A model generated the notes under the pieces. It saw nothing but the letters and a program-made list of their open reading frames with translations, had not been told where the DNA came from and searched no databases. From a virus, in IMG/VR virus record IMGVR_UViG_3300020183_000009: 64,000 nucleotides of DNA, one strand, 5' to 3'. Made by a program: the position numbers and the translations under genes. Of the stretch, positions 3,481-60,559 are shown piece after piece (the first letter of the stretch is position 1; each line of letters starts with the position of its first letter).

Positions 3481-4028
3481 TTAAGTTTACTTTCTTCTCT
3501 TATATCACGTAGAAAAAGTCTATTTAAGATATAATATACATTTGGTAAATAAAAGTCTCTATACCAAACCAATAAATGTTCTAAGTTACGAAATTCAGTT
3601 ATTGATTTAAGTTCTTGGAAATAATCTCCCATCATCTCCTTATCAATCATTGTTTTACCGTCTTTTGTAACGGTATAATATATCGCTTCAACAGGTGTAT
3701 AATCTGAACCGTCCCAAAAAGGAGTTGCATATCCTGCGAACGTTTCTTCATATTCAGCATCATCACCATAATAATCGGTTGGTGAATCCATTCTCCATTC
3801 AAAAGTCGCATTAAATCTATCAACAAATATTTCATATTCTCTATAGACTTCAGGTAATTTACCTAGTTGGTATAAATCAAACAGAACTTGGTTAGCCAAC
3901 TCATGGTTAATTGGTATATTAAGTTCAACTGCTAAATCAGCTTGATTCAATCCCAATATTTCAGCCGCACCACGTAATCCGTGTTCATCCACTAATTTTC
4001 TTAGTCGCTTTTTTCTATCCTCTTTCAT
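3477..4028 (-). CDS. hypothetical protein, possible N-terminal HTH
   Basis: GLRGAAEILGL pattern; TATTTAT upstream. Confidence 0.7.
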   Translation of the reverse strand: MKEDRKKRLRKLVDEHGLRGAAEILGLNQADLAVELNIPINHELANQVLFDLYQLGKLPEVYREYEIFVDRFNATFEWRMDSPTDYYGDDAEYEETFAGYATPFWDGSDYTPVEAIYYTVTKDGKTMIDKEMMGDYFQELKSITEFRNLEHLLVWYRDFYLPNVYYILNRLFLRDIREESKLN

Positions 4029-8424: not shown

Positions 8425-8775
8425 ATGGCACATCCAATACAACATGCTAAAAGTTCAGCCAAAAAATTTGGTGGTAAATGGGAAGATTATATTCATATCC
8501 ATAATTGGTTTGACGAAACTAAAAGTTGGTATGGTACATCTACTCACAGAATGTTCAGACATCACTCAGAGGGTATTTTTGAATGTGAAAAAATATTTGG
8601 TCCCATGTTTATAAACAGTGATGATAAAACTGTATATACTAGATATGTTGGTGAGCAACATGTTAGAGAAGATTGTTTCAACCATATACCATGTGCGAAA
8701 GAATGGATTATGGCTTTAGAAGCAAAAGAAAAACCTATATGGATGATGCGGACAATGGACATTAATATAGATTAA
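8425..8775 (+). CDS. DUF6915-like His-rich protein
   Basis: MAHP..HA.SS.KKFGG, IH.WFD.TK, HR..RHH.EGIFE, EQHV.ED motifs. Confidence 0.7.
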   Translation: MAHPIQHAKSSAKKFGGKWEDYIHIHNWFDETKSWYGTSTHRMFRHHSEGIFECEKIFGPMFINSDDKTVYTRYVGEQHVREDCFNHIPCAKEWIMALEAKEKPIWMMRTMDINID

Positions 8776-8788
8776 TATATTTATTTAT

Positions 8789-9475
8789 ATGGAAATTCAA
8801 TTAACAGAGGAGGAAAAAAAGACATTAAAATTATTTGTCTATTATGTAAAATCATATGGTAAATCAAGTGTTTATAGTGAACATGTAGTTTATGATAACC
8901 AATTAGACTATTATAGTGGAGAATGGTATGGTCAAGGAAGTCCTGTACCTAGTTATAAAGAAATAGATGAATTAGTAGAATCTATTATTGATAGGTATGA
9001 TATTCTTGATGAGGTTGGTGGCGATAATGGTGATGGTAGAGTTATGTTTATTGTTGATTGTGATGATATGGAAATTGAGGTAGAGGTGGCTTCGTATATC
9101 TTAACAACTCGAGATTCAGGTGATACGGAAATAATTAGTGAAAAGTTTGGTGAATCAGGGACTGAATTAGTAGAGTTTATGAAATCTAAAGGTATCTCAG
9201 AAGGTAGAGTCGATTTCTCAGGTGGTGGTGACTCTGGAGAAATAATGGATTATATCCAATTTGGTAATAGTGGTGAACCGAATAAACCTTTATCTAGAGA
9301 TGTATTAGATACGTTATACACTTGGTTAGAAGACTTTTATGGCGGATGGGAAATAAATGAAGGTTCTCAAGGTTATTTTACTTTTTATAGTGGAGACAAT
9401 GAATGTGAATTATTTTTTCAAGAAAATTATGAAGAATCGGAATTAGATACCGTTTTATTCGCAAAAATACAATAA
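8789..9475 (+). CDS. DUF6878-like acidic protein
   Basis: FSGGGDSG and GWEINEGSQG motifs. Confidence 0.6.
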   Translation: MEIQLTEEEKKTLKLFVYYVKSYGKSSVYSEHVVYDNQLDYYSGEWYGQGSPVPSYKEIDELVESIIDRYDILDEVGGDNGDGRVMFIVDCDDMEIEVEVASYILTTRDSGDTEIISEKFGESGTELVEFMKSKGISEGRVDFSGGGDSGEIMDYIQFGNSGEPNKPLSRDVLDTLYTWLEDFYGGWEINEGSQGYFTFYSGDNECELFFQENYEESELDTVLFAKIQ

Positions 9476-9479
9476 AATC

Positions 9480-9507
9480 AAAAACCCCTCCGAAAAGGGG
9501 TTTTTTT
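9480..9507. terminator. bidirectional intrinsic terminator
   Basis: AAAACCCCT-CCGAAA-AGGGGTTTT hairpin with A/T tails between convergent units. Confidence 0.85.
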
Positions 9508-9511
9508 ATAT

Positions 9512-9660
9512 CTGTTCAAGTGAGGTCATAATGTCAGAATACAGAGTGTTAAGATTTGATTGATAACTGTTGAACGCTTGAATCTTGACTAAAGGACCGT
9601 ACTAAATCAACATCATAACATCGGTTCTGAACAATAGTTTGTAAACATCATCACTCAACT
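9512..9660 (-). ncRNA. candidate structured ncRNA / 3-prime RNA element
   Basis: Three nested stems found by eye, ORF-free, lying between the stop of 9671..10108 and the terminator. Confidence 0.5.
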
Positions 9661-9670
9661 ATCCCACATA

Positions 9671-10108
9671 TTAAATTTGAGTTAGAGCATTGTGGGTATC
9701 CAACTCGTCTTGGATTGACTCAATCTCATCCTCCATAATTTTTACCACACTATCTCTTTCTACGATTGAAATTTCTGAGGTCATTACAGGTATATTTTCA
9801 CTACGTCTTGAGTAGTAATCTGTTGATGTACCTTCAGTACAGTTCAACATTTTGATTTTAGACACCAATGACTTCAATTCAGACAATCTGAAAATCTTGT
9901 CATACACTGGTGAATTCGCTTGGTGAATCTTTGTTTTCAATTCAACCAAATCATTGGTAAGTTTTTCAACTTTTTCCAACGACTCTGATGAAGAATATGG
10001 TCTTAGTGAACCTACCTCGACACTATTGTAGGATTGAGCTTTTTGTAGTTCTTCGGTAATTTCTTTAACCAATTTATTCTTCAACTTTAATGCTTGTTTT
10101 ACAGTCAT
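9671..10108 (-). CDS. DIP1984-like coiled-coil protein
   Basis: QAL.LK..L, L..LK.KI..AN, I..IQ.ELD..N pattern. Confidence 0.6.
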   Translation of the reverse strand: MTVKQALKLKNKLVKEITEELQKAQSYNSVEVGSLRPYSSSESLEKVEKLTNDLVELKTKIHQANSPVYDKIFRLSELKSLVSKIKMLNCTEGTSTDYYSRRSENIPVMTSEISIVERDSVVKIMEDEIESIQDELDTHNALTQI

Positions 10109-10162
10109 ATGTTGTTTTTTAATTTACTATTCAATGATAGGTGATAACCCCCAAAAGTCAAA

Positions 10163-10588: not shown

Positions 10589-10605
10589 ATAACAATAATA
10601 AATAA

Positions 10606-10629
10606 AAGGGGGTTAAACTAAACCCCCTT
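10606..10629 (-). terminator. intrinsic terminator
   Basis: AAGGGGGTT-N6-AACCCCCTT hairpin downstream of 10638..11372. Confidence 0.75.
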
Positions 10630-10637
10630 CTTGGGTA

Positions 10638-11372
10638 TTAAATCATTTTCAAAATGACTTCAGTTTTACCATCCCATTTGATGATACGGGATTTAGGAAC
10701 CCAAAACTCCATTTCACCGATTTCCTCAACTTTCGCTAAGTACTCGTTACGGAAACGTTCTGCTTGACTTGCGTCTGTGATATATTCAACACCCATGTGT
10801 TTAGCACATGTCTTACCCATTTTAGTTAACATTGAAAACTCATCAGTAAGTGTCTTAGCACAACACACACAAACATCTCCACGTTTAACCGTCATCTTAC
10901 CTGAGAACTTAACCGCCTTTGGTGATACTGCCAACACCTTAGTGATATCCAAAAGGATTGGGTTAAACTGTAGTCCGTATTGTTCTTTCATTTTTTGACC
11001 AACTGAACGTCCAACTTTAACTGTTTCACCAATAGTAGGTAGGTTCAATTTACGAGTATTTGCTTTGTTCTCGTCAGATTGGATTGTTCTGATTGCGGCG
11101 GAAACTTGTTTGTCAGAAAGTTTACCGTACTTCTCAAGTTTACTTTTCAACTCATTAACAAATGAGTTAGTACCTTGGTAGTCAGCAATAACTTTCAAGT
11201 CACCTGTCAATTCTACCTCTTTAGCTTCGGTAGGGTTAGATAAAATTTTCTCAACTGCTGATTTTTGATTTACGGTCAAAGAACCGTATTTTGTTAGAGC
11301 ATCCTTCATTTTAAGGATGAATGTGTTTTTTCCTTGATAATTTTTAACTTGTGTTGCGATGTCTGTTGTCAT
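10638..11372 (-). CDS. protein with DUF6011-like Zn-binding C-terminal domain
   Basis: CVCCAKTLTD..S...MGKTCA motif; duplicated N-terminal YQG.N.F...KYG.L..KQ repeat; host-type promoter. Confidence 0.6.
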   Translation of the reverse strand: MTTDIATQVKNYQGKNTFILKMKDALTKYGSLTVNQKSAVEKILSNPTEAKEVELTGDLKVIADYQGTNSFVNELKSKLEKYGKLSDKQVSAAIRTIQSDENKANTRKLNLPTIGETVKVGRSVGQKMKEQYGLQFNPILLDITKVLAVSPKAVKFSGKMTVKRGDVCVCCAKTLTDEFSMLTKMGKTCAKHMGVEYITDASQAERFRNEYLAKVEEIGEMEFWVPKSRIIKWDGKTEVILKMI

Positions 11373-45224: not shown

Positions 45225-47597
45225 TTACTGGGTGACAAAACTTATATTATTTTCTTTACGTATTTTAATTACATTATCCGACCAATTGGATACCAATGGG
45301 TTATGGGTGATAACAAAAATTTTCTCAAAATATTCTTTAATTTTAATAAAGAATTCTGAAACCATTTCTAAATTATCGTTTGATATTTTACCAAATACTT
45401 CATCAAATACAATAATGTTAGGTTTAGGTAATGAACATATTTTACTTAGGACCGCTCTCAACGCTAGTGAGGCAATTGTTCTTTCATATCCTGAACCTGA
45501 CGACATTAATTTTTCAACTTGGGTATTATTATCAATCATAATAAATTCTACTTCATTTTTATCGTTGATTCTAATTTCTAATCTAAAGTGAGAACTATCT
45601 TCCAACAATCTTTGTAGTTCTGAATTAATTAATGGCATCATGGTTTTCATAATCATTTTAGAAATCCCATTTTTACCATAAATCTCAAGGTATGTTTTAT
45701 ATATCTTTTCTTTCTCAGATTCTTCAGAAATCTTTTTAATCTTAATATTATTTTGTTCTATCTTTTCTTTATACGAAGAAATTTGATAATTGTTACTATC
45801 AATTTTTCTTGTTATAGAATTTTTCTCAGCTTCCAACTCATCAATTCTTAAACCCGCTTTTATTATCTGTGTCTCGAGTTTTTCATTTGCAGAAATCTTA
45901 TCCTGTAATTCATTATACTTTGAGAGTTTTTCTTCAAGCCCTTTTATTTTCAAGTCAAAACTTTCAATACTAAGTTCATATTTTTCTTTGATTAACTTAT
46001 TTTTTTCGTACTCATCAAACTCTTTTTTTAACTTAACAAAACTTTGTTCTTTGTAGGATAAATCCTGCATAACAATCGTTTTTGTGGTCTTTTGCACGAT
46101 AAGTCCGTCAAGTTCCGCAATTTTAGCATTTGTGATTGCTGCGTTCATTAACTCAATACCACAGTGTTCACACTTGATTCCACCCTCTACTTCAGACTTT
46201 AACTTATTAATTGATGAAATCTCGGTATCAACTTGAATAATTTTTTTGTAAATCTCATTATATTGTTCTTTGACCTCATCGTGTTTGTCCTCATGGTAAA
46301 ACTCAGATGGTTCAATAACATTTATCAATGATAATTGATTTTCAACACCTTTTTTTTGCGTTTTAAAATATTCTATTTCACCTAAAACTTTATCAGGTGA
46401 TAACAAACTAATCTCTTTATCAATATCAGTATGTTTACTTTTGAGTAGGTTGTCTCGGTATTCCTGTCCTTTTATTATCCTATTTTGAACGTCAATTAAA
46501 TTAGTTTGTTGGGTCATGTTGTTCTCATCAAAACTTTTAATTTGTTCAGAGTATGTTTCGTTATCAGTCTTAAGTTTTTCACTACTATATACGTTTGATA
46601 ACATTGATTTGGAGAATTCACTATATATTTCTTTACCAACTTCTTCTTTCTTTTTTAAGAAATCCAATCCCATGAACCTAGAAAGTACCTGACCTCTTGC
46701 AGTTGGTTTAGAGTCAATCAAATCTTCTAAATTAGTTGCGGTAGTTAATATTGTCATTAAGAAGTCGTCTTTAGAACCTATGGATGTTTTAATGAATGAT
46801 TCAGTTTCTCTACGTTGTTCCCCTGTAAAATTTTGTAAACTACCATCGGATAACTTTTTGAAGAAGTCTAATTCTGTTTTTACATTCCAATCCCCACTTT
46901 TAGATTTCTTTCTTTCAATGTTCCTAACAATAATATATTCTTCACCGTCAATTACAATCTCACCTTTAACGTGTACTTTATTCTTATCTGTAAATCTATT
47001 GAATATTTCCTCAGCTTTACTTGTTTTAGTTGTTTCATTAAAGAATAAGAATAGTAGTAAGTCAACACTTAATACTGTTTTTCCTCCAAAATTTGGTGGA
47101 TTTGATTCAACAACTGAAATACCGTTACATTTATCAAAATCAATTCTTTGGTTTTCTCCGTATGAAAGGAAATTTGAAAACTCTATGTTTTTAATGAACC
47201 ATCTTTTGAATGGTGTTACGTCAGTTTCATTAGCCAATAGTTTATTATCAACAATGTTGTCCAAGTTTGAAACATCATCAATAATGTTTTTTTGTGATTT
47301 GTTTTCAAGATAAGATTTAACAAGTTCTACCTGATAATTTTTATCCAAGATATTAAATGATATATCAACATTGTGAGTAACATCTTCCGAAACTTTAGTT
47401 TTGGTTATAACATTAACATTTGTCGTGTTGTACTTCTTTTGGAAGTAATGTCTAACACTTTTAATTTTTTCTTGGGTGAAATTTTCAGCATGGTCTTCCC
47501 ATATCACTTGTAGATATGGGTTGTCCAAATTGGTAAAATCCAATTCTTTTATCATTATTTTGTAATTAAAATTTACAGGTGGATTAAATAAATCCAT
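45225..47597 (-). CDS. SbcC/Rad50-like (T4 gp46-like) ATPase
   Basis: NFLSYG, Walker A NFGGKT, coiled coils with CEHC zinc hook, signature GSGYE, Walker B VFDEVFG, ITH. Confidence 0.92.
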   Translation of the reverse strand: MDLFNPPVNFNYKIMIKELDFTNLDNPYLQVIWEDHAENFTQEKIKSVRHYFQKKYNTTNVNVITKTKVSEDVTHNVDISFNILDKNYQVELVKSYLENKSQKNIIDDVSNLDNIVDNKLLANETDVTPFKRWFIKNIEFSNFLSYGENQRIDFDKCNGISVVESNPPNFGGKTVLSVDLLLFLFFNETTKTSKAEEIFNRFTDKNKVHVKGEIVIDGEEYIIVRNIERKKSKSGDWNVKTELDFFKKLSDGSLQNFTGEQRRETESFIKTSIGSKDDFLMTILTTATNLEDLIDSKPTARGQVLSRFMGLDFLKKKEEVGKEIYSEFSKSMLSNVYSSEKLKTDNETYSEQIKSFDENNMTQQTNLIDVQNRIIKGQEYRDNLLKSKHTDIDKEISLLSPDKVLGEIEYFKTQKKGVENQLSLINVIEPSEFYHEDKHDEVKEQYNEIYKKIIQVDTEISSINKLKSEVEGGIKCEHCGIELMNAAITNAKIAELDGLIVQKTTKTIVMQDLSYKEQSFVKLKKEFDEYEKNKLIKEKYELSIESFDLKIKGLEEKLSKYNELQDKISANEKLETQIIKAGLRIDELEAEKNSITRKIDSNNYQISSYKEKIEQNNIKIKKISEESEKEKIYKTYLEIYGKNGISKMIMKTMMPLINSELQRLLEDSSHFRLEIRINDKNEVEFIMIDNNTQVEKLMSSGSGYERTIASLALRAVLSKICSLPKPNIIVFDEVFGKISNDNLEMVSEFFIKIKEYFEKIFVITHNPLVSNWSDNVIKIRKENNISFVTQ

Positions 47598-59128: not shown

Positions 59129-60559
59129 ATGACTTATCCTTTTTTAGGACCAACTCCTACACCTAAACCAATAATACCTGAGTTCACAAATGAATGTGAA
59201 CCAATCACTTTATTCCCTATGGGTGTTGAGTGTAATCTTACTCATCCTTCTCCATCATCATCCGATGGTTCGATTTATTTAACAATAACGGGAGGAACTC
59301 CTCCATATTATATAAGCTGGAATAACGGTAACATTTCACCCGTTATATACAATTTAACTGCAGGTGTTTATGAAGCAACAGTTATTGATTCTTATGGCGA
59401 TTTTACCGCAAATACAAAATGTATTTTAACAGGTTCAACACCAACACCTTCCCCCACACCGACCCCAACACCTACAACTCCTTATATTGAGTATCAACTT
59501 TGTATGACAACAAATATACTTAAACAAGGTTCTTATGTAGAAACTCAAACTAATTTTTCACCTAACGGTTTATTTAATTCTAAACCTTCTTGGATTTCTA
59601 ATGACTCAACACAAGTAATATATTGGGACTCAACTCTTTTACAATGGAAGTTATCGGCTTCAACTCCAACAACTTATACAATATTTAATTCAAATCCTAC
59701 TTACCCACCAATTTATGGTAGTTGGTTTATTATTGGCGCTACAGGTACTGTAATAGTTTATGAAGGTAACTGTAATCAAATAGTAAGGATTCCAAATGGT
59801 AGATTCTCGGCAGAATCAGAAGATTCGGTCCAACCTATGAATGTTTTAATTACTAAAAACCAAACAATATGTGGATGTGATGGTGGTTTAACAATTAAAT
59901 CAAGTGGTGGTTACCCTCCATATTCATATTCGATTAATGGTGGTTTGACATATAGAAATATACCAATGTTCAGTAATTTATGTTCAGGTTCCTACAATGT
60001 TGTTGTTAGTGATTCTGAAGGATTTACTGTTAGTAATAATATAACGTTAAATCCTCCATCACCTCCAACCACTTATAACGTTAAATTAGTTACCCTACCT
60101 AAAACACTACAAGCAAATAGTACATTATTAACTAAAGAGTACACGACAACATTATCAATAACACCTGATTTACCTGATGGTACAAGTATTAACTTTAAAT
60201 TGAGTCATTTAAACTTATCTAAATCTTCACCTAATGAAGATTCCGCCACTTTTAATACCAAGACCTCATTAACTATTGATGGTATCAATATAATTCCACC
60301 GTCCTCATCTTCAACAAACGATGATAGTATTATTAATACAGTTGCAGGTTGTCAATCGGAAAATGTTTGGTTAACTTCATTAAATGAAGTGTGGGATTCA
60401 ATTACTATAGATAACACAAGTGATTTTAAAATTAGAACAATAACAAGTGTAAATAGAAATGAATTTGTTAATTGTTATGTTGGTACAAGTGATGAAACAT
60501 ATAATTTATCAAACTTAAAAATTTACGGTTGTGGTTGTTGTTCAATTATAACGTCATAA
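59129..60559 (+). CDS. SprB-repeat and PT-repeat structural protein
   Basis: DGSI.LT.TGGTPPY..SW.NG...NLTAG.Y...V.D and a second SGGYPPYSYSINGG...NLCSGSY.V.VSD repeat. Confidence 0.75.
   Translation: MTYPFLGPTPTPKPIIPEFTNECEPITLFPMGVECNLTHPSPSSSDGSIYLTITGGTPPYYISWNNGNISPVIYNLTAGVYEATVIDSYGDFTANTKCILTGSTPTPSPTPTPTPTTPYIEYQLCMTTNILKQGSYVETQTNFSPNGLFNSKPSWISNDSTQVIYWDSTLLQWKLSASTPTTYTIFNSNPTYPPIYGSWFIIGATGTVIVYEGNCNQIVRIPNGRFSAESEDSVQPMNVLITKNQTICGCDGGLTIKSSGGYPPYSYSINGGLTYRNIPMFSNLCSGSYNVVVSDSEGFTVSNNITLNPPSPPTTYNVKLVTLPKTLQANSTLLTKEYTTTLSITPDLPDGTSINFKLSHLNLSKSSPNEDSATFNTKTSLTIDGINIIPPSSSSTNDDSIINTVAGCQSENVWLTSLNEVWDSITIDNTSDFKIRTITSVNRNEFVNCYVGTSDETYNLSNLKIYGCGCCSIITS

What the first reader, a model, noticed from the sequence alone, without database searches (positions are those of the whole stretch)
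9480..10108. DIP1984-like gene followed by a ~150-nt rod-shaped RNA: candidate protein-RNA module
Seen: in a very compact genome, 160 ORF-free nt lie between the stop codon (9671) and the terminator. On the minus strand they fold by eye into nested stems: GUUGAGUGA/UCACUUGAAC, UGUUCAGAA/UUCUGACA and UGUUAUGAUGUUGAUU/AAUCAAAUCUUAACA. These enclose an apical region with repeated UCAA units (GUCAAG-AUUCAAG-CGUUCAA-CAGUUAUCAA-UCAA). It is not tRNA- or tmRNA-like. Inference: a co-transcribed ncRNA that partners the coiled-coil protein, for example as a ribonucleoprotein, RNA antitoxin, protein sponge or 6S-like decoy.
Basis: partly seen in the sequence, partly recalled or inferred. Interest (0 to 1): 0.75.

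Follow-up and report, generated by a model that had tools for sequence, protein, structure and literature searches.

The report
Partner RNA behind phage DIP1984-like gene
Directly behind a small helical-protein gene of unknown function, this phage encodes a real, conserved, folded RNA of about 166 bases with a row of evenly spaced short units; the same gene-plus-RNA pair recurs in well over a hundred phage contigs and, in another form, in bacteria, and matches no catalogued RNA family, so it is probably an undescribed protein-RNA pair.

Summary
The 160 ORF-free bases exist and hold a real RNA element (window 9507-9672, minus strand). By itself it folds no better than shuffled sequence (z +0.38). 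Comparison decides the matter. All phage-type relatives of the gene that were examined (39-94% protein identity, about 100 distinct flanks) carry the element at the stop codon, usually followed by an intrinsic terminator. It is more stable on the gene strand in 32 of 33 lineages. The stem encloses a G-poor core with conserved motifs and about six Y(C/U)AA units at a 7-8 nt period. There is no Rfam, tRNA or tmRNA match. The protein has the DIP1984 fold (3KDQ, Z 13.3) and is modelled as a dimer. Bona fide bacterial DIP1984 genes also have a conserved structured 3' RNA. In Acinetobacter the pair lies inside rnz-rtcB-x-DIP1984-RNA-rtcA. The best reading is a co-transcribed partner RNA forming a ribonucleoprotein, possibly linked to RNA damage. 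Binding is untested. The scan has noted this gene-RNA class before, on other DNA.

The parts
9671..10108 (-). Gene for a 145-aa helical protein with the DIP1984 / DUF6847 fold; it is modelled as a homodimer
   Evidence: ORF. There is a weak whole-length match to NCBIfam DIP1984_fam (21 bits, cut-off 70), and 54 of 66 relatives match it. The AF2 model has pLDDT 89.7. Its best solved match is 3KDQ (Foldseek TM 0.75; VIA-align Z 13.3, rmsd 2.7 over 140 residues, next unrelated row 8.9). The dimer model scores 0.65 against a best control of 0.00.
10134..10161 (-). Promoter-like site (TTGACT, 16 nt, TATCAT) 26 nt upstream of the start codon; possible start of the gene-plus-RNA transcript
   Evidence: Consensus scan only. 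Such sites were no more frequent than in shuffles, so this is weak evidence.
9507..9672 (-). The whole RNA element (166 nt); it begins within the UAA stop codon and ends just before the terminator
   Evidence: Covariance model R2 gives 80.9 bits, E 4e-14, and this is the only significant hit in the 64-kb window. Model R1, built only from a different lineage, gives 31.3 bits.
9639..9672 (-).
   Evidence: RNAduplex of the 5' and 3' ends; covariation of 22 pairs.
9507..9543 (-). 3' strand of closing helix P1 (includes UCACUUGAAC at 9514-9523)
   Evidence: P1 is more stable on the gene strand in 32 of 33 lineages.
9633..9643 (-). Conserved motif UACAAACUAUU at the 5' side of the core
   Evidence: Highly conserved columns in the model-based alignments.
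9606..9622 (-). Three GAU units (GAUGUUAUGAUGUUGAU)
   Evidence: Conserved GAU...UGAU...GAU pattern across lineages.
9545..9590 (-). G-poor display region with six Y(C/U)AA units at a period of about 7-8 nt, ending in the conserved CUUAACACUC
   Evidence: unit counts and spacings against shuffles; core composition G 11%, C 19%, A 39%, U 31%. The core is nearly invariant in close relatives.
9480..9505 (.). Bidirectional intrinsic terminator; it ends the gene-plus-RNA transcript and also the convergent gene 8789-9475
   Evidence: A terminator follows the element in most relatives.

Best explanation
Window 9507-9672 (minus strand) is a member of a widespread, uncatalogued class of structured RNA that is obligately linked to genes of the DIP1984/DUF6847 fold. 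It is transcribed as the tail of the gene's mRNA and ended by the intrinsic terminator at 9480-9505. An imperfect closing helix of 25-30 bp forms from the first bases after the stop codon and the last bases before the terminator. This helix closes off a G-poor region of about 95 nt that is probably largely single-stranded. That region presents a UACAAAYUAUU motif, three GAU units and about six Y(C/U)AA units at a 7-8 nt period. I infer that this periodic display is the binding platform for several copies of the dimeric protein encoded just upstream, so that gene and RNA are the two halves of a ribonucleoprotein. The closing helix may serve as a processing or end-joining stem. By analogy with the bacterial pair that lies inside an RtcR-controlled rnz-rtcB-x-DIP1984-RNA-rtcA operon, the particle may act in the response to RNA or tRNA damage during infection. 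Shown here: the RNA's conservation, the helix, the strand, the periodic units, the strict linkage to the gene, and the protein fold. Inferred: co-transcription, protein-RNA binding, processing, and the link to RNA damage.
For: - The 3' flank is conserved in 12 IMG/VR relatives and has a near-invariant core.
- The core pattern occurs in viral contigs only beside the gene.
- 106 distinct flanks from 186 loci carry the same architecture.
- The 5' end pairs best with its own 3' end, ranking 0-2 of 31 in 22 of 32 lineages. The helix sequences are unrelated between lineages.
- On 80 model-aligned sequences P1 is 93% paired, against 66.7% in shuffles and about 40% when partners are slid. All 22 pairs show changes on both sides, in 317 cells against 82 expected.
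- The gene-strand helix is more stable in 32 of 33 lineages, p about 7e-7.
- Models R1 and R2 find one hit per locus, always just after the gene. This holds down to 39-41% protein identity.
- There is one hit per complete phage genome of about 310 kb, at the gene.
- Units are periodic with a 7-8 nt spacing.
- The protein has the DIP1984 fold, and a dimer is modelled with score 0.65 against a best control of 0.00.
- Ten bona fide bacterial DIP1984 genes from five phyla are each followed by 190-330 ORF-free bases. These share conserved blocks and have 23 of 35 predicted pairs with compensatory changes.
- The A. baumannii operon reads rtcR | rnz-rtcB-hyp-DIP1984-gap-rtcA.
Against: - Transcription, RNA ends and stability are therefore unproven.
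- No test of protein-RNA binding was possible.
- The window's own fold energy is no better than chance.
- No internal helix of the core covaries, so the core structure is unknown.
- The model-based alignments lean towards the modelled helix, although the duplex test is independent of them.
- The phage RNA and the bacterial RNA could not be shown to be homologous: R2 does not hit the bacterial loci.
- No RtcB is encoded in the window, in the flanks, or in four complete phages that carry the pair.
- The Rtc context was seen by me in one bacterial locus out of ten.
Confidence: 0.5

Rival explanations
1. The element is a cis-acting 3' UTR. It controls the stability or translation of the DIP1984-like mRNA itself. 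Examples would be an RNase III-sensitive retroregulator like lambda sib, a barrier to 3' exonucleases, or an operator through which the protein represses its own mRNA. No free-standing RNA would have a function of its own.
For: The element starts inside the stop codon and ends at the terminator, so it is part of the mRNA. A 25-30 bp imperfect duplex is the size of an RNase III substrate (general knowledge of RNase III). The strict cis linkage to one gene is what a cis regulator would show.
Against: A terminator hairpin alone already protects 3' ends. About 95 nt of conserved, periodic, largely unpaired sequence is far more than a stability element needs. The bacterial counterparts are multi-helix RNAs of 190-300 nt, some with a T-arm-like hairpin. 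In about 20 relatives another small ORF lies between the gene and the element, yet the element is kept.
Confidence: 0.2
2. The RNA is a trans-acting decoy or sponge for a host factor, not for its neighbouring protein. The Y(C/U)AA units would titrate a host RNA-binding protein or nuclease. For instance, they could mimic the U-CAA-R / U-UAA-A anticodon loops of tRNA-Leu, or T-loops, to absorb a tRNA-targeting defence nuclease. The gene would simply share the transcript.
For: There are repeated short units in a G-poor unpaired loop. The units read U-CAA-R or U-UAA-A, which is visible directly in the sequence. tRNA-related neighbours occur in relatives: tRNA-Glu directly after the RNA in L014/L015, and tRNA genes upstream plus a Schlafen AlbA_2 gene downstream in a bacterial locus.
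Against: The RNA was never seen without the gene across 39-94% protein identity, nor in bacteria. That is hard to explain if the protein plays no part. The anticodon-loop likeness is my own reading of short motifs and was not tested.
Confidence: 0.15
3. The pair is a toxin-antitoxin-like addiction or abortive-infection module, in which the RNA neutralises a toxic DIP1984-like protein (type III-like).
For: It is a tight two-part protein-plus-RNA module. Bacterial homologues are common on small Acinetobacter plasmids.
Against: Type III antitoxins are tandem repeats encoded upstream of an endoribonuclease toxin. Here the RNA is single-copy, downstream, and not a tandem array by TRF. The protein matches no PADLOC model convincingly. 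It is a helical bundle with no nuclease fold. One bacterial copy lies in an RNA-repair operon, not in a defence island.
Confidence: 0.05
4. The element works as DNA. The TCAA-type units would be iterons or a protein-binding array (origin, partition or packaging site), and the inverted repeat would form a cruciform or a single-strand hairpin.
For: There are short direct units at a period of 7-8 bp and a long inverted repeat.
Against: The helix holds about 2 G-U pairs per lineage and is more stable on the gene strand in 32 of 33 lineages. That points to a transcript of one strand. Placement exactly between stop codon and terminator is conserved. The bacterial counterparts are typical multi-helix RNAs.
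Confidence: 0.03

Closest known systems
Ro60 (Rsr) with bacterial Y RNAs (Yrn1, YrlA/YrlB), including the Salmonella rsr-yrlBA-rtcBA operon (PMC4201824; PMC7790460)
   Same: In both, a protein gene has its partner ncRNA encoded directly beside it. The 5' and 3' ends of the RNA pair into a long terminal stem that closes a large, G-poor module. Both occur in bacteria and phages. One bacterial DIP1984-plus-RNA pair occupies the same kind of slot in an RtcR-controlled rtcB/rtcA operon. Some bacterial DIP1984-linked RNAs carry a T-arm-like hairpin, which recalls the tRNA mimicry of YrlA.
   Different: The protein is a 145-aa helical dimer with the DIP1984 fold, not a Ro60 ring of about 500 aa. No Rfam Y RNA model matches. 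The loop carries heptad-spaced Y(C/U)AA units, which Y RNAs lack. No binding has been shown.
DIP1984 family / Pfam DUF6847 (PF20935; NCBIfam NF038048; crystal structure 3KDQ of Corynebacterium diphtheriae; often annotated 'septicolysin')
   Same: The fold is the same (Z 13.3, TM 0.75) and the length is about 145-150 aa. There is remote sequence similarity over the whole length. Bacterial members are also followed by a structured RNA.
   Different: The window protein scores below both curated cut-offs (21 bits against 70; 18 against 27). The phage branch is a separate large clade, with 1679 clusters at 50% identity. The function of the family is unknown, so the match explains nothing about mechanism.
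Multi-site protein-binding RNAs: CsrB/RsmZ (GGA units for CsrA), the trp leader (11 GAG/UAG units for the TRAP ring), CrcZ (A-rich units for Hfq). From general knowledge.
   Same: All have several copies of a short unit in unpaired RNA at regular spacing, suited to an oligomeric reader.
   Different: The unit (Y(C/U)AA) and the period (7-8 nt) differ. The units lie in one closed loop rather than in many hairpin loops. The presumed reader is encoded in cis on the same transcript.
Lambda sib / RNase III retroregulation and other RNase III processing stems (general knowledge)
   Same: A long imperfect duplex lies in the 3' part of a phage mRNA, next to a terminator.
   Different: sib is a single hairpin with no conserved interior. 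Here the stem encloses about 95 nt of conserved sequence and travels with one gene family across phages and bacteria.
Type III toxin-antitoxin systems (ToxIN, CptIN, TenpIN; general knowledge)
   Same: Both are a two-part protein-plus-RNA gene module on mobile elements.
   Different: In type III systems the antitoxin RNA is a tandem array upstream of an endoribonuclease gene. Here there is one RNA, downstream of a helical non-nuclease protein.

Membership tests
DIP1984 family (NCBIfam NF038048) / Pfam DUF6847 (PF20935) | Score at or above the curated cut-off of the family's profile | tested here: not met
   NF038048 gives 21 bits against a cut-off of 70, E 2.9e-4, but over residues 5-139 of 145. 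PF20935 gives 18.2 bits against 27. 54 of 66 relatives match NF038048 at E<1e-3, best 2.7e-14.
DIP1984 family (NCBIfam NF038048) / Pfam DUF6847 (PF20935) | Fold of the family's solved member (3KDQ) | tested here: met
   Foldseek gives TM 0.75, probability 1.00. VIA-align gives Z 13.3, rmsd 2.7 A over 140 of 145 residues; the next unrelated row has Z 8.9. The model has pLDDT 89.7.
Uncatalogued DIP1984/DUF6847-linked RNA of phages (this report's models R1 and R2) | Lies directly 3' of the gene on the gene strand, with a long covarying closing helix and a conserved core containing Y(C/U)AA units at a 7-8 nt period | tested here: met
   R2 gives 80.9 bits, E 4e-14, at 9507-9672 on the minus strand. 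R1, built without this lineage, gives 31.3 bits. The window has six units spaced 7, 8, 10, 4 and 7 nt.
Y RNA (Rfam Y_RNA and bacterial Y RNA models) | Match to the family's covariance model (terminal stem with the conserved Ro60-binding helix) | tested here: not met
   There is no Rfam match at gathering score in the window. Nothing except terminator-driven noise appears at E up to 10 in 9400-9750.
Y RNA (Rfam Y_RNA and bacterial Y RNA models) | A Ro60/Rsr (TROVE) gene in the same genome and binding to it | not tested
   The window's ORFs were not screened for TROVE domains. No whole genome is held for this window.
6S RNA | Match to the Rfam 6S models; a rod with a central bubble that mimics an open promoter | tested here: not met
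   No Rfam match. The interior is one large asymmetric loop closed by a single helix.
Type III toxin-antitoxin | Tandem array of antitoxin RNA repeats upstream of an endoribonuclease toxin gene | tested here: not met
   TRF finds no tandem array. The RNA is single-copy and downstream. The protein is a helical bundle with no convincing PADLOC match.
tRNA / tmRNA | Cloverleaf or tmRNA structure detected by ARAGORN or Rfam | tested here: not met
   ARAGORN finds 0 genes in the window. Rfam finds none.

The most novel reading that the evidence does not exclude
The DIP1984-fold dimer polymerises along the heptad-spaced units of its own 3' RNA. The closing helix brings the two ends of the RNA together so that it can be cut out of the mRNA, and perhaps sealed by the host ligase RtcB. 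The resulting particle would be a previously unknown RNA-damage or tRNA-damage response RNP, shared by bacteria (within Rtc operons) and large phages. Phages would use it to withstand host RNA-targeting defences.
Probability: 0.15. Interest if true: 0.92.

Novelty: categorically new. Interest (0 to 1): 0.78.

Why it matters
If the pair is a ribonucleoprotein, it gives a first functional handle on DUF6847/DIP1984. This is a solved-structure family of unknown function that is widely annotated 'septicolysin' on Acinetobacter resistance plasmids. It would also add a new class of structured RNA, absent from Rfam 15, that is common in large freshwater and marine phages (1679 protein clusters at 50% identity). 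The RNA's design is unusual: one long covarying stem closing a loop of heptad-spaced units. That makes binding, stoichiometry and processing directly testable. The placement of a bacterial pair between rtcB and rtcA, where Salmonella has Ro60 and Y RNAs, suggests a second, unrelated RNP solution to the same RNA-repair problem. The substrates and logic of Rtc operons are still an open question.

Tried and rejected
- The single-sequence fold gave z +0.38, so it carries no signal by itself.
- Rfam at gathering score and at E up to 10 gave only terminator-like noise. Rfam on the bacterial loci gave nothing in the 3' flanks.
- A blastn search of INPHARED phages with 2.7 kb around the locus found no match. 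PHROGs has no family for the protein.
- RNAalifold on plain MAFFT alignments of mixed lineages failed, because the helix strands were misaligned. mafft-qinsi was not usable.
- An all-against-all covariation scan and averaged pair probabilities found no internal helix in the core.
- A PDB sequence search with the protein profile gave only uL29 at E 0.015. I regard this as coiled-coil noise.
- JGI's 'GatC' name for some relatives has no support from Pfam or NCBIfam.
- Reading the alternative-frame ORFs that overlap the element as genes was rejected. They cluster only through the overlapping gene end.
- I considered a boxA/nut-like antitermination reading of ACUCUUUUA. I dropped it because the downstream gene is convergent here and the motif is not constant.
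- I considered a Rho-loading (rut) reading of the G-poor core and left it as unsupported.
- R2 does not detect the bacterial DIP1984-linked RNAs, so homology of the two RNA types is open.
- No RtcB, RtcA or RNase Z homologue occurs in the window or in the fetched flanks. No RtcB occurs in four complete phages that carry the pair.
No whole genome is held for the window.
- TRF finds no tandem repeat, because the units are too degenerate.

Full report
**What is in the window.** The window is phage-like DNA of about 30% G+C. It has no tRNA genes and no Rfam match, and no whole genome is held for it. On the minus strand a 145-aa ORF (9671-10108) is followed by 160 bases without any start-bearing ORF. 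Then comes a bidirectional intrinsic terminator at 9480-9505, which also ends the convergent gene 8789-9475. A promoter-like site, TTGACT-16-TATCAT, lies at 10161-10134 (consensus scan only).

Folded alone, bases 9510-9670 give -30.8 kcal/mol. Shuffles give -32.3 +/- 3.9, so z is +0.38. By that criterion alone the finding would fail.

**Comparative evidence reverses that verdict.**
- The protein has 637 close relatives, nearly all metagenomic, and 1679 clusters at 50% identity.
- In 15 IMG/VR loci the 3' flank is visibly conserved. It has a near-invariant core (AGUACGGUCCUUUAGUCAAGAUUCAAGCGUUCAACA) and is followed by a terminator.
- The core pattern occurs in the viral collection only beside this gene.
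- With 160 further loci from metagenomes and IMG/VR I obtained 106 distinct flanks. Nearly all have the same layout.

**The closing helix P1.**
- I compared the first 36 nt after the stop codon with each lineage's own 3' region and with those of 31 other lineages. The own partner ranks 0-2 of 31 in 22 of 32 lineages. The paired sequences are unrelated between lineages, for example AUAAAGGUAGUAUAGUAUAU.../...AUAUUACUAUUACCUUUGA in L160. This test does not depend on any alignment.
- Covariance model R1 was built from one lineage (A4). It found the element in most other lineages, always just after the gene on the gene strand.
- On the resulting alignment the 22 modelled pairs are 93.1% paired, against 67.6% in shuffles and about 40% when partners are slid. 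All 22 show changes on both sides.
- A second model, R2, gave the same result on 80 sequences. Pairing was 93.0% against 66.7%. There were 317 double-change cells against 82 expected, and no shuffle out of 500 reached the observed value. These alignments are fitted to the model and so lean towards it. The slid controls and guard against that bias.
- P1 is more stable on the gene strand than on its complement in 32 of 33 lineages: mean -22.1 against -16.9 kcal/mol, p about 7e-7, with 72 G-U pairs among 826. A transcript of the gene strand is therefore what folds.
- R2 places the window's copy at 9507-9672 (80.9 bits, E 4e-14). It is the only significant hit in 64 kb. R1, which contains no sequence of this lineage, scores it at 31.3 bits with filters off.

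**The interior.**
- The two inner stems are not supported. Across 80 relatives they are paired in 58.4% of cells against 57.7% in shuffles, with identical covariation scores.
- De novo scans for covarying column pairs and averaged pair probabilities find nothing inside P1.
- The interior is G-poor (G 11%, C 19%, A 39%, U 31%). It carries conserved motifs: UACAAAYUAUU, three GAU units, and a run ending GUCAAAACUUAAAACUC.
There are 5.7 Y(C/U)AA units per core against 2.6 in shuffles. Spacing is 7 nt in 101 and 8 nt in 47 of 241 intervals, and 65% of spacings are 7-9 nt against 15% in shuffles. The window has six units spaced 7, 8, 10, 4 and 7 nt.
- TRF does not call them, because they are too degenerate.

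**Linkage to the gene.**
- R2 finds the element behind homologues of only 39-41% identity, on contigs binned with Flavobacteriia and Cryomorphaceae MAGs.
- Four complete phage genomes of about 310 kb have exactly one copy each, at the gene.
- In about 20 relatives a 62-aa Cys-rich ORF is inserted between gene and element. The element is kept and again starts at that ORF's stop codon.
- Other neighbours are only partly syntenic.

**The protein.**
- It matches NCBIfam DIP1984_fam over its whole length but far below the cut-off (21 against 70 bits). It matches Pfam DUF6847 weakly. 54 of 66 relatives match DIP1984_fam.
- An AlphaFold2 model (pLDDT 89.7) has as its only clear solved relative 3KDQ, the Corynebacterium diphtheriae protein of unknown function. 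Foldseek gives TM 0.75. VIA-align gives Z 13.3 and rmsd 2.7 A over 140 residues, with the next row at 8.9.
- A homodimer is modelled with score 0.65 against a best control of 0.00. That mark was reached by 20 of 30 proteins solved as pairs of one chain and by 1 of 23 solved as single chains. The runs agree in at least 98% of contacts, and partner pLDDT is at least 90. Because 3KDQ is a solved multi-chain crystal, this pass may partly reflect likeness to it.
- The held literature says nothing about function. 'DIP1984' and 'septicolysin' appear only as annotations on Acinetobacter plasmids.

**Beyond phages.**
- I fetched ten bona fide bacterial DIP1984/DUF6847 genes, with Pfam scores of 122-167 bits. 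They come from Bacteroidota, Alpha- and Gammaproteobacteria, Bacillota, Actinomycetota and Cyanobacteriota.
- Each is followed by 190-330 ORF-free bases.
- Six of them, from four phyla, align with shared blocks (GGCGAGCAC, GCCCAGCAC, ACGAGGGUGGGNNNGGGG). RNAalifold predicts 35 pairs, 23 of them with compensatory changes. Some contain a T-arm-like hairpin (GUGGGUUCGAUCCCCAC).
- Neither Rfam nor R2 matches them. They may be a diverged form or a different RNA, but the gene-then-RNA rule holds.
- In one A. baumannii record the gene and its 260-nt gap lie in rtcR | RNase Z - rtcB - hypothetical - DIP1984 - gap - rtcA. In Salmonella, rsr and the Y RNAs yrlBA lie in front of rtcBA (PMC4201824, PMC7790460).
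- I saw this context in one locus of ten. Phages with the pair encode no RtcB of their own.

**Interpretation.** Shown here: a conserved, strand-specific, structured RNA class that is absent from Rfam and strictly linked to a protein family of unknown function. Inferred: co-transcription, which is suggested by the position between stop codon and terminator; binding of the dimeric protein to the periodic units; possible processing at P1; and a link to RNA damage. My estimates are:
- a real functional RNA linked to this gene: about 0.9
- the RNP reading: about 0.5
- a purely cis-acting UTR: about 0.2
- a decoy for a host factor: about 0.15
- a toxin-antitoxin module: about 0.05
- a DNA-level element: about 0.03

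**Earlier notes of this scan.** After my own analysis I looked up the scan's notes. Twenty findings in at least 18 genomes describe the same gene-RNA pairing in phages, bacteria and Asgard archaea. They include the 'heptad' description, an RtcB association in one bacterial phylum, and a proposed excision and circularisation in an archaeon. These are unchecked AI notes. I tested the heptad periodicity, the bacterial occurrence and one Rtc context myself. I did not test the archaeal claims or the reported abundance.

Noticed in passing
L050, L072, L119, L123, L130 and about 15 further loci, between the gene's stop codon and the RNA (for example L072:1940-2128): A 62-aa Cys-rich ORF (CDFC...CxxCG, zinc-ribbon-like) is inserted between the DIP1984-like gene and the RNA. 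The RNA's closing helix then starts at this ORF's UAG stop codon. The ORF is absent from the window.
   Followed up: partly
L202 (NZ_CP098797.1 81634-88234): An Acinetobacter baumannii locus reads rtcR | RNase Z - rtcB - 216-aa hypothetical (no Pfam match) - DIP1984 - 260-nt gap - rtcA. A DIP1984 gene with its 3' RNA-like gap thus lies inside an RNA-repair operon.
   Followed up: partly
L192:1945-2285, L196:1166-1440, L197:1166-1440, L200:1125-1400: The bacterial DIP1984 3' flanks contain a tRNA T-arm-like hairpin (such as GUGGGUUCGAUCCCCAC). They end in a G-tract block, ACGAGGGUGGGNNNGGGG. There is no Rfam match.
   Followed up: partly
L014/L015 about 3640-3715; L192 (=L203) 1211-1422 and L203:5581-6564: tRNA genes lie next to the pair in some relatives. 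tRNA-Glu(UUC) follows directly after the RNA in two phage contigs of 117-160 kb. In a Bacteroidota genome, tRNA-Gly and tRNA-Val lie just upstream of a bacterial DIP1984 gene, and a Schlafen AlbA_2 gene follows its RNA.
   Followed up: no
window 9480-9505: One hairpin serves as an intrinsic terminator in both directions. It ends the DIP1984-like gene plus RNA on the minus strand and the convergent DUF6878-like gene (8789-9475) on the plus strand.
   Followed up: no
window 10638-11372 (minus strand): A 244-aa protein with a weak C-terminal DUF6011-like zinc-finger match and its own terminator (10604-10631) lies upstream on the same strand. A homologue is found upstream in 46 of 101 relatives' loci. 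The DUF6878 and DUF6915 genes (8789-9475 and 8425-8775) are also often syntenic.
   Followed up: partly
window 59129-60559 and 45225-47597: There is a SprB-repeat protein, a repeat typical of Bacteroidota, and an SbcC/Rad50-like ATPase. Together with the Flavobacteriia and Cryomorphaceae MAG contigs that carry distant copies of the pair, this hints at a Bacteroidota host.
   Followed up: no
window 9665-9672 with 9507-9513: At the base of P1 the window has AUAUGUG opposite CAGAUAU, which gives a G-G mismatch. Close relatives have AUAUCUG there. The window's own helix is therefore slightly weaker than the family norm.
   Followed up: no
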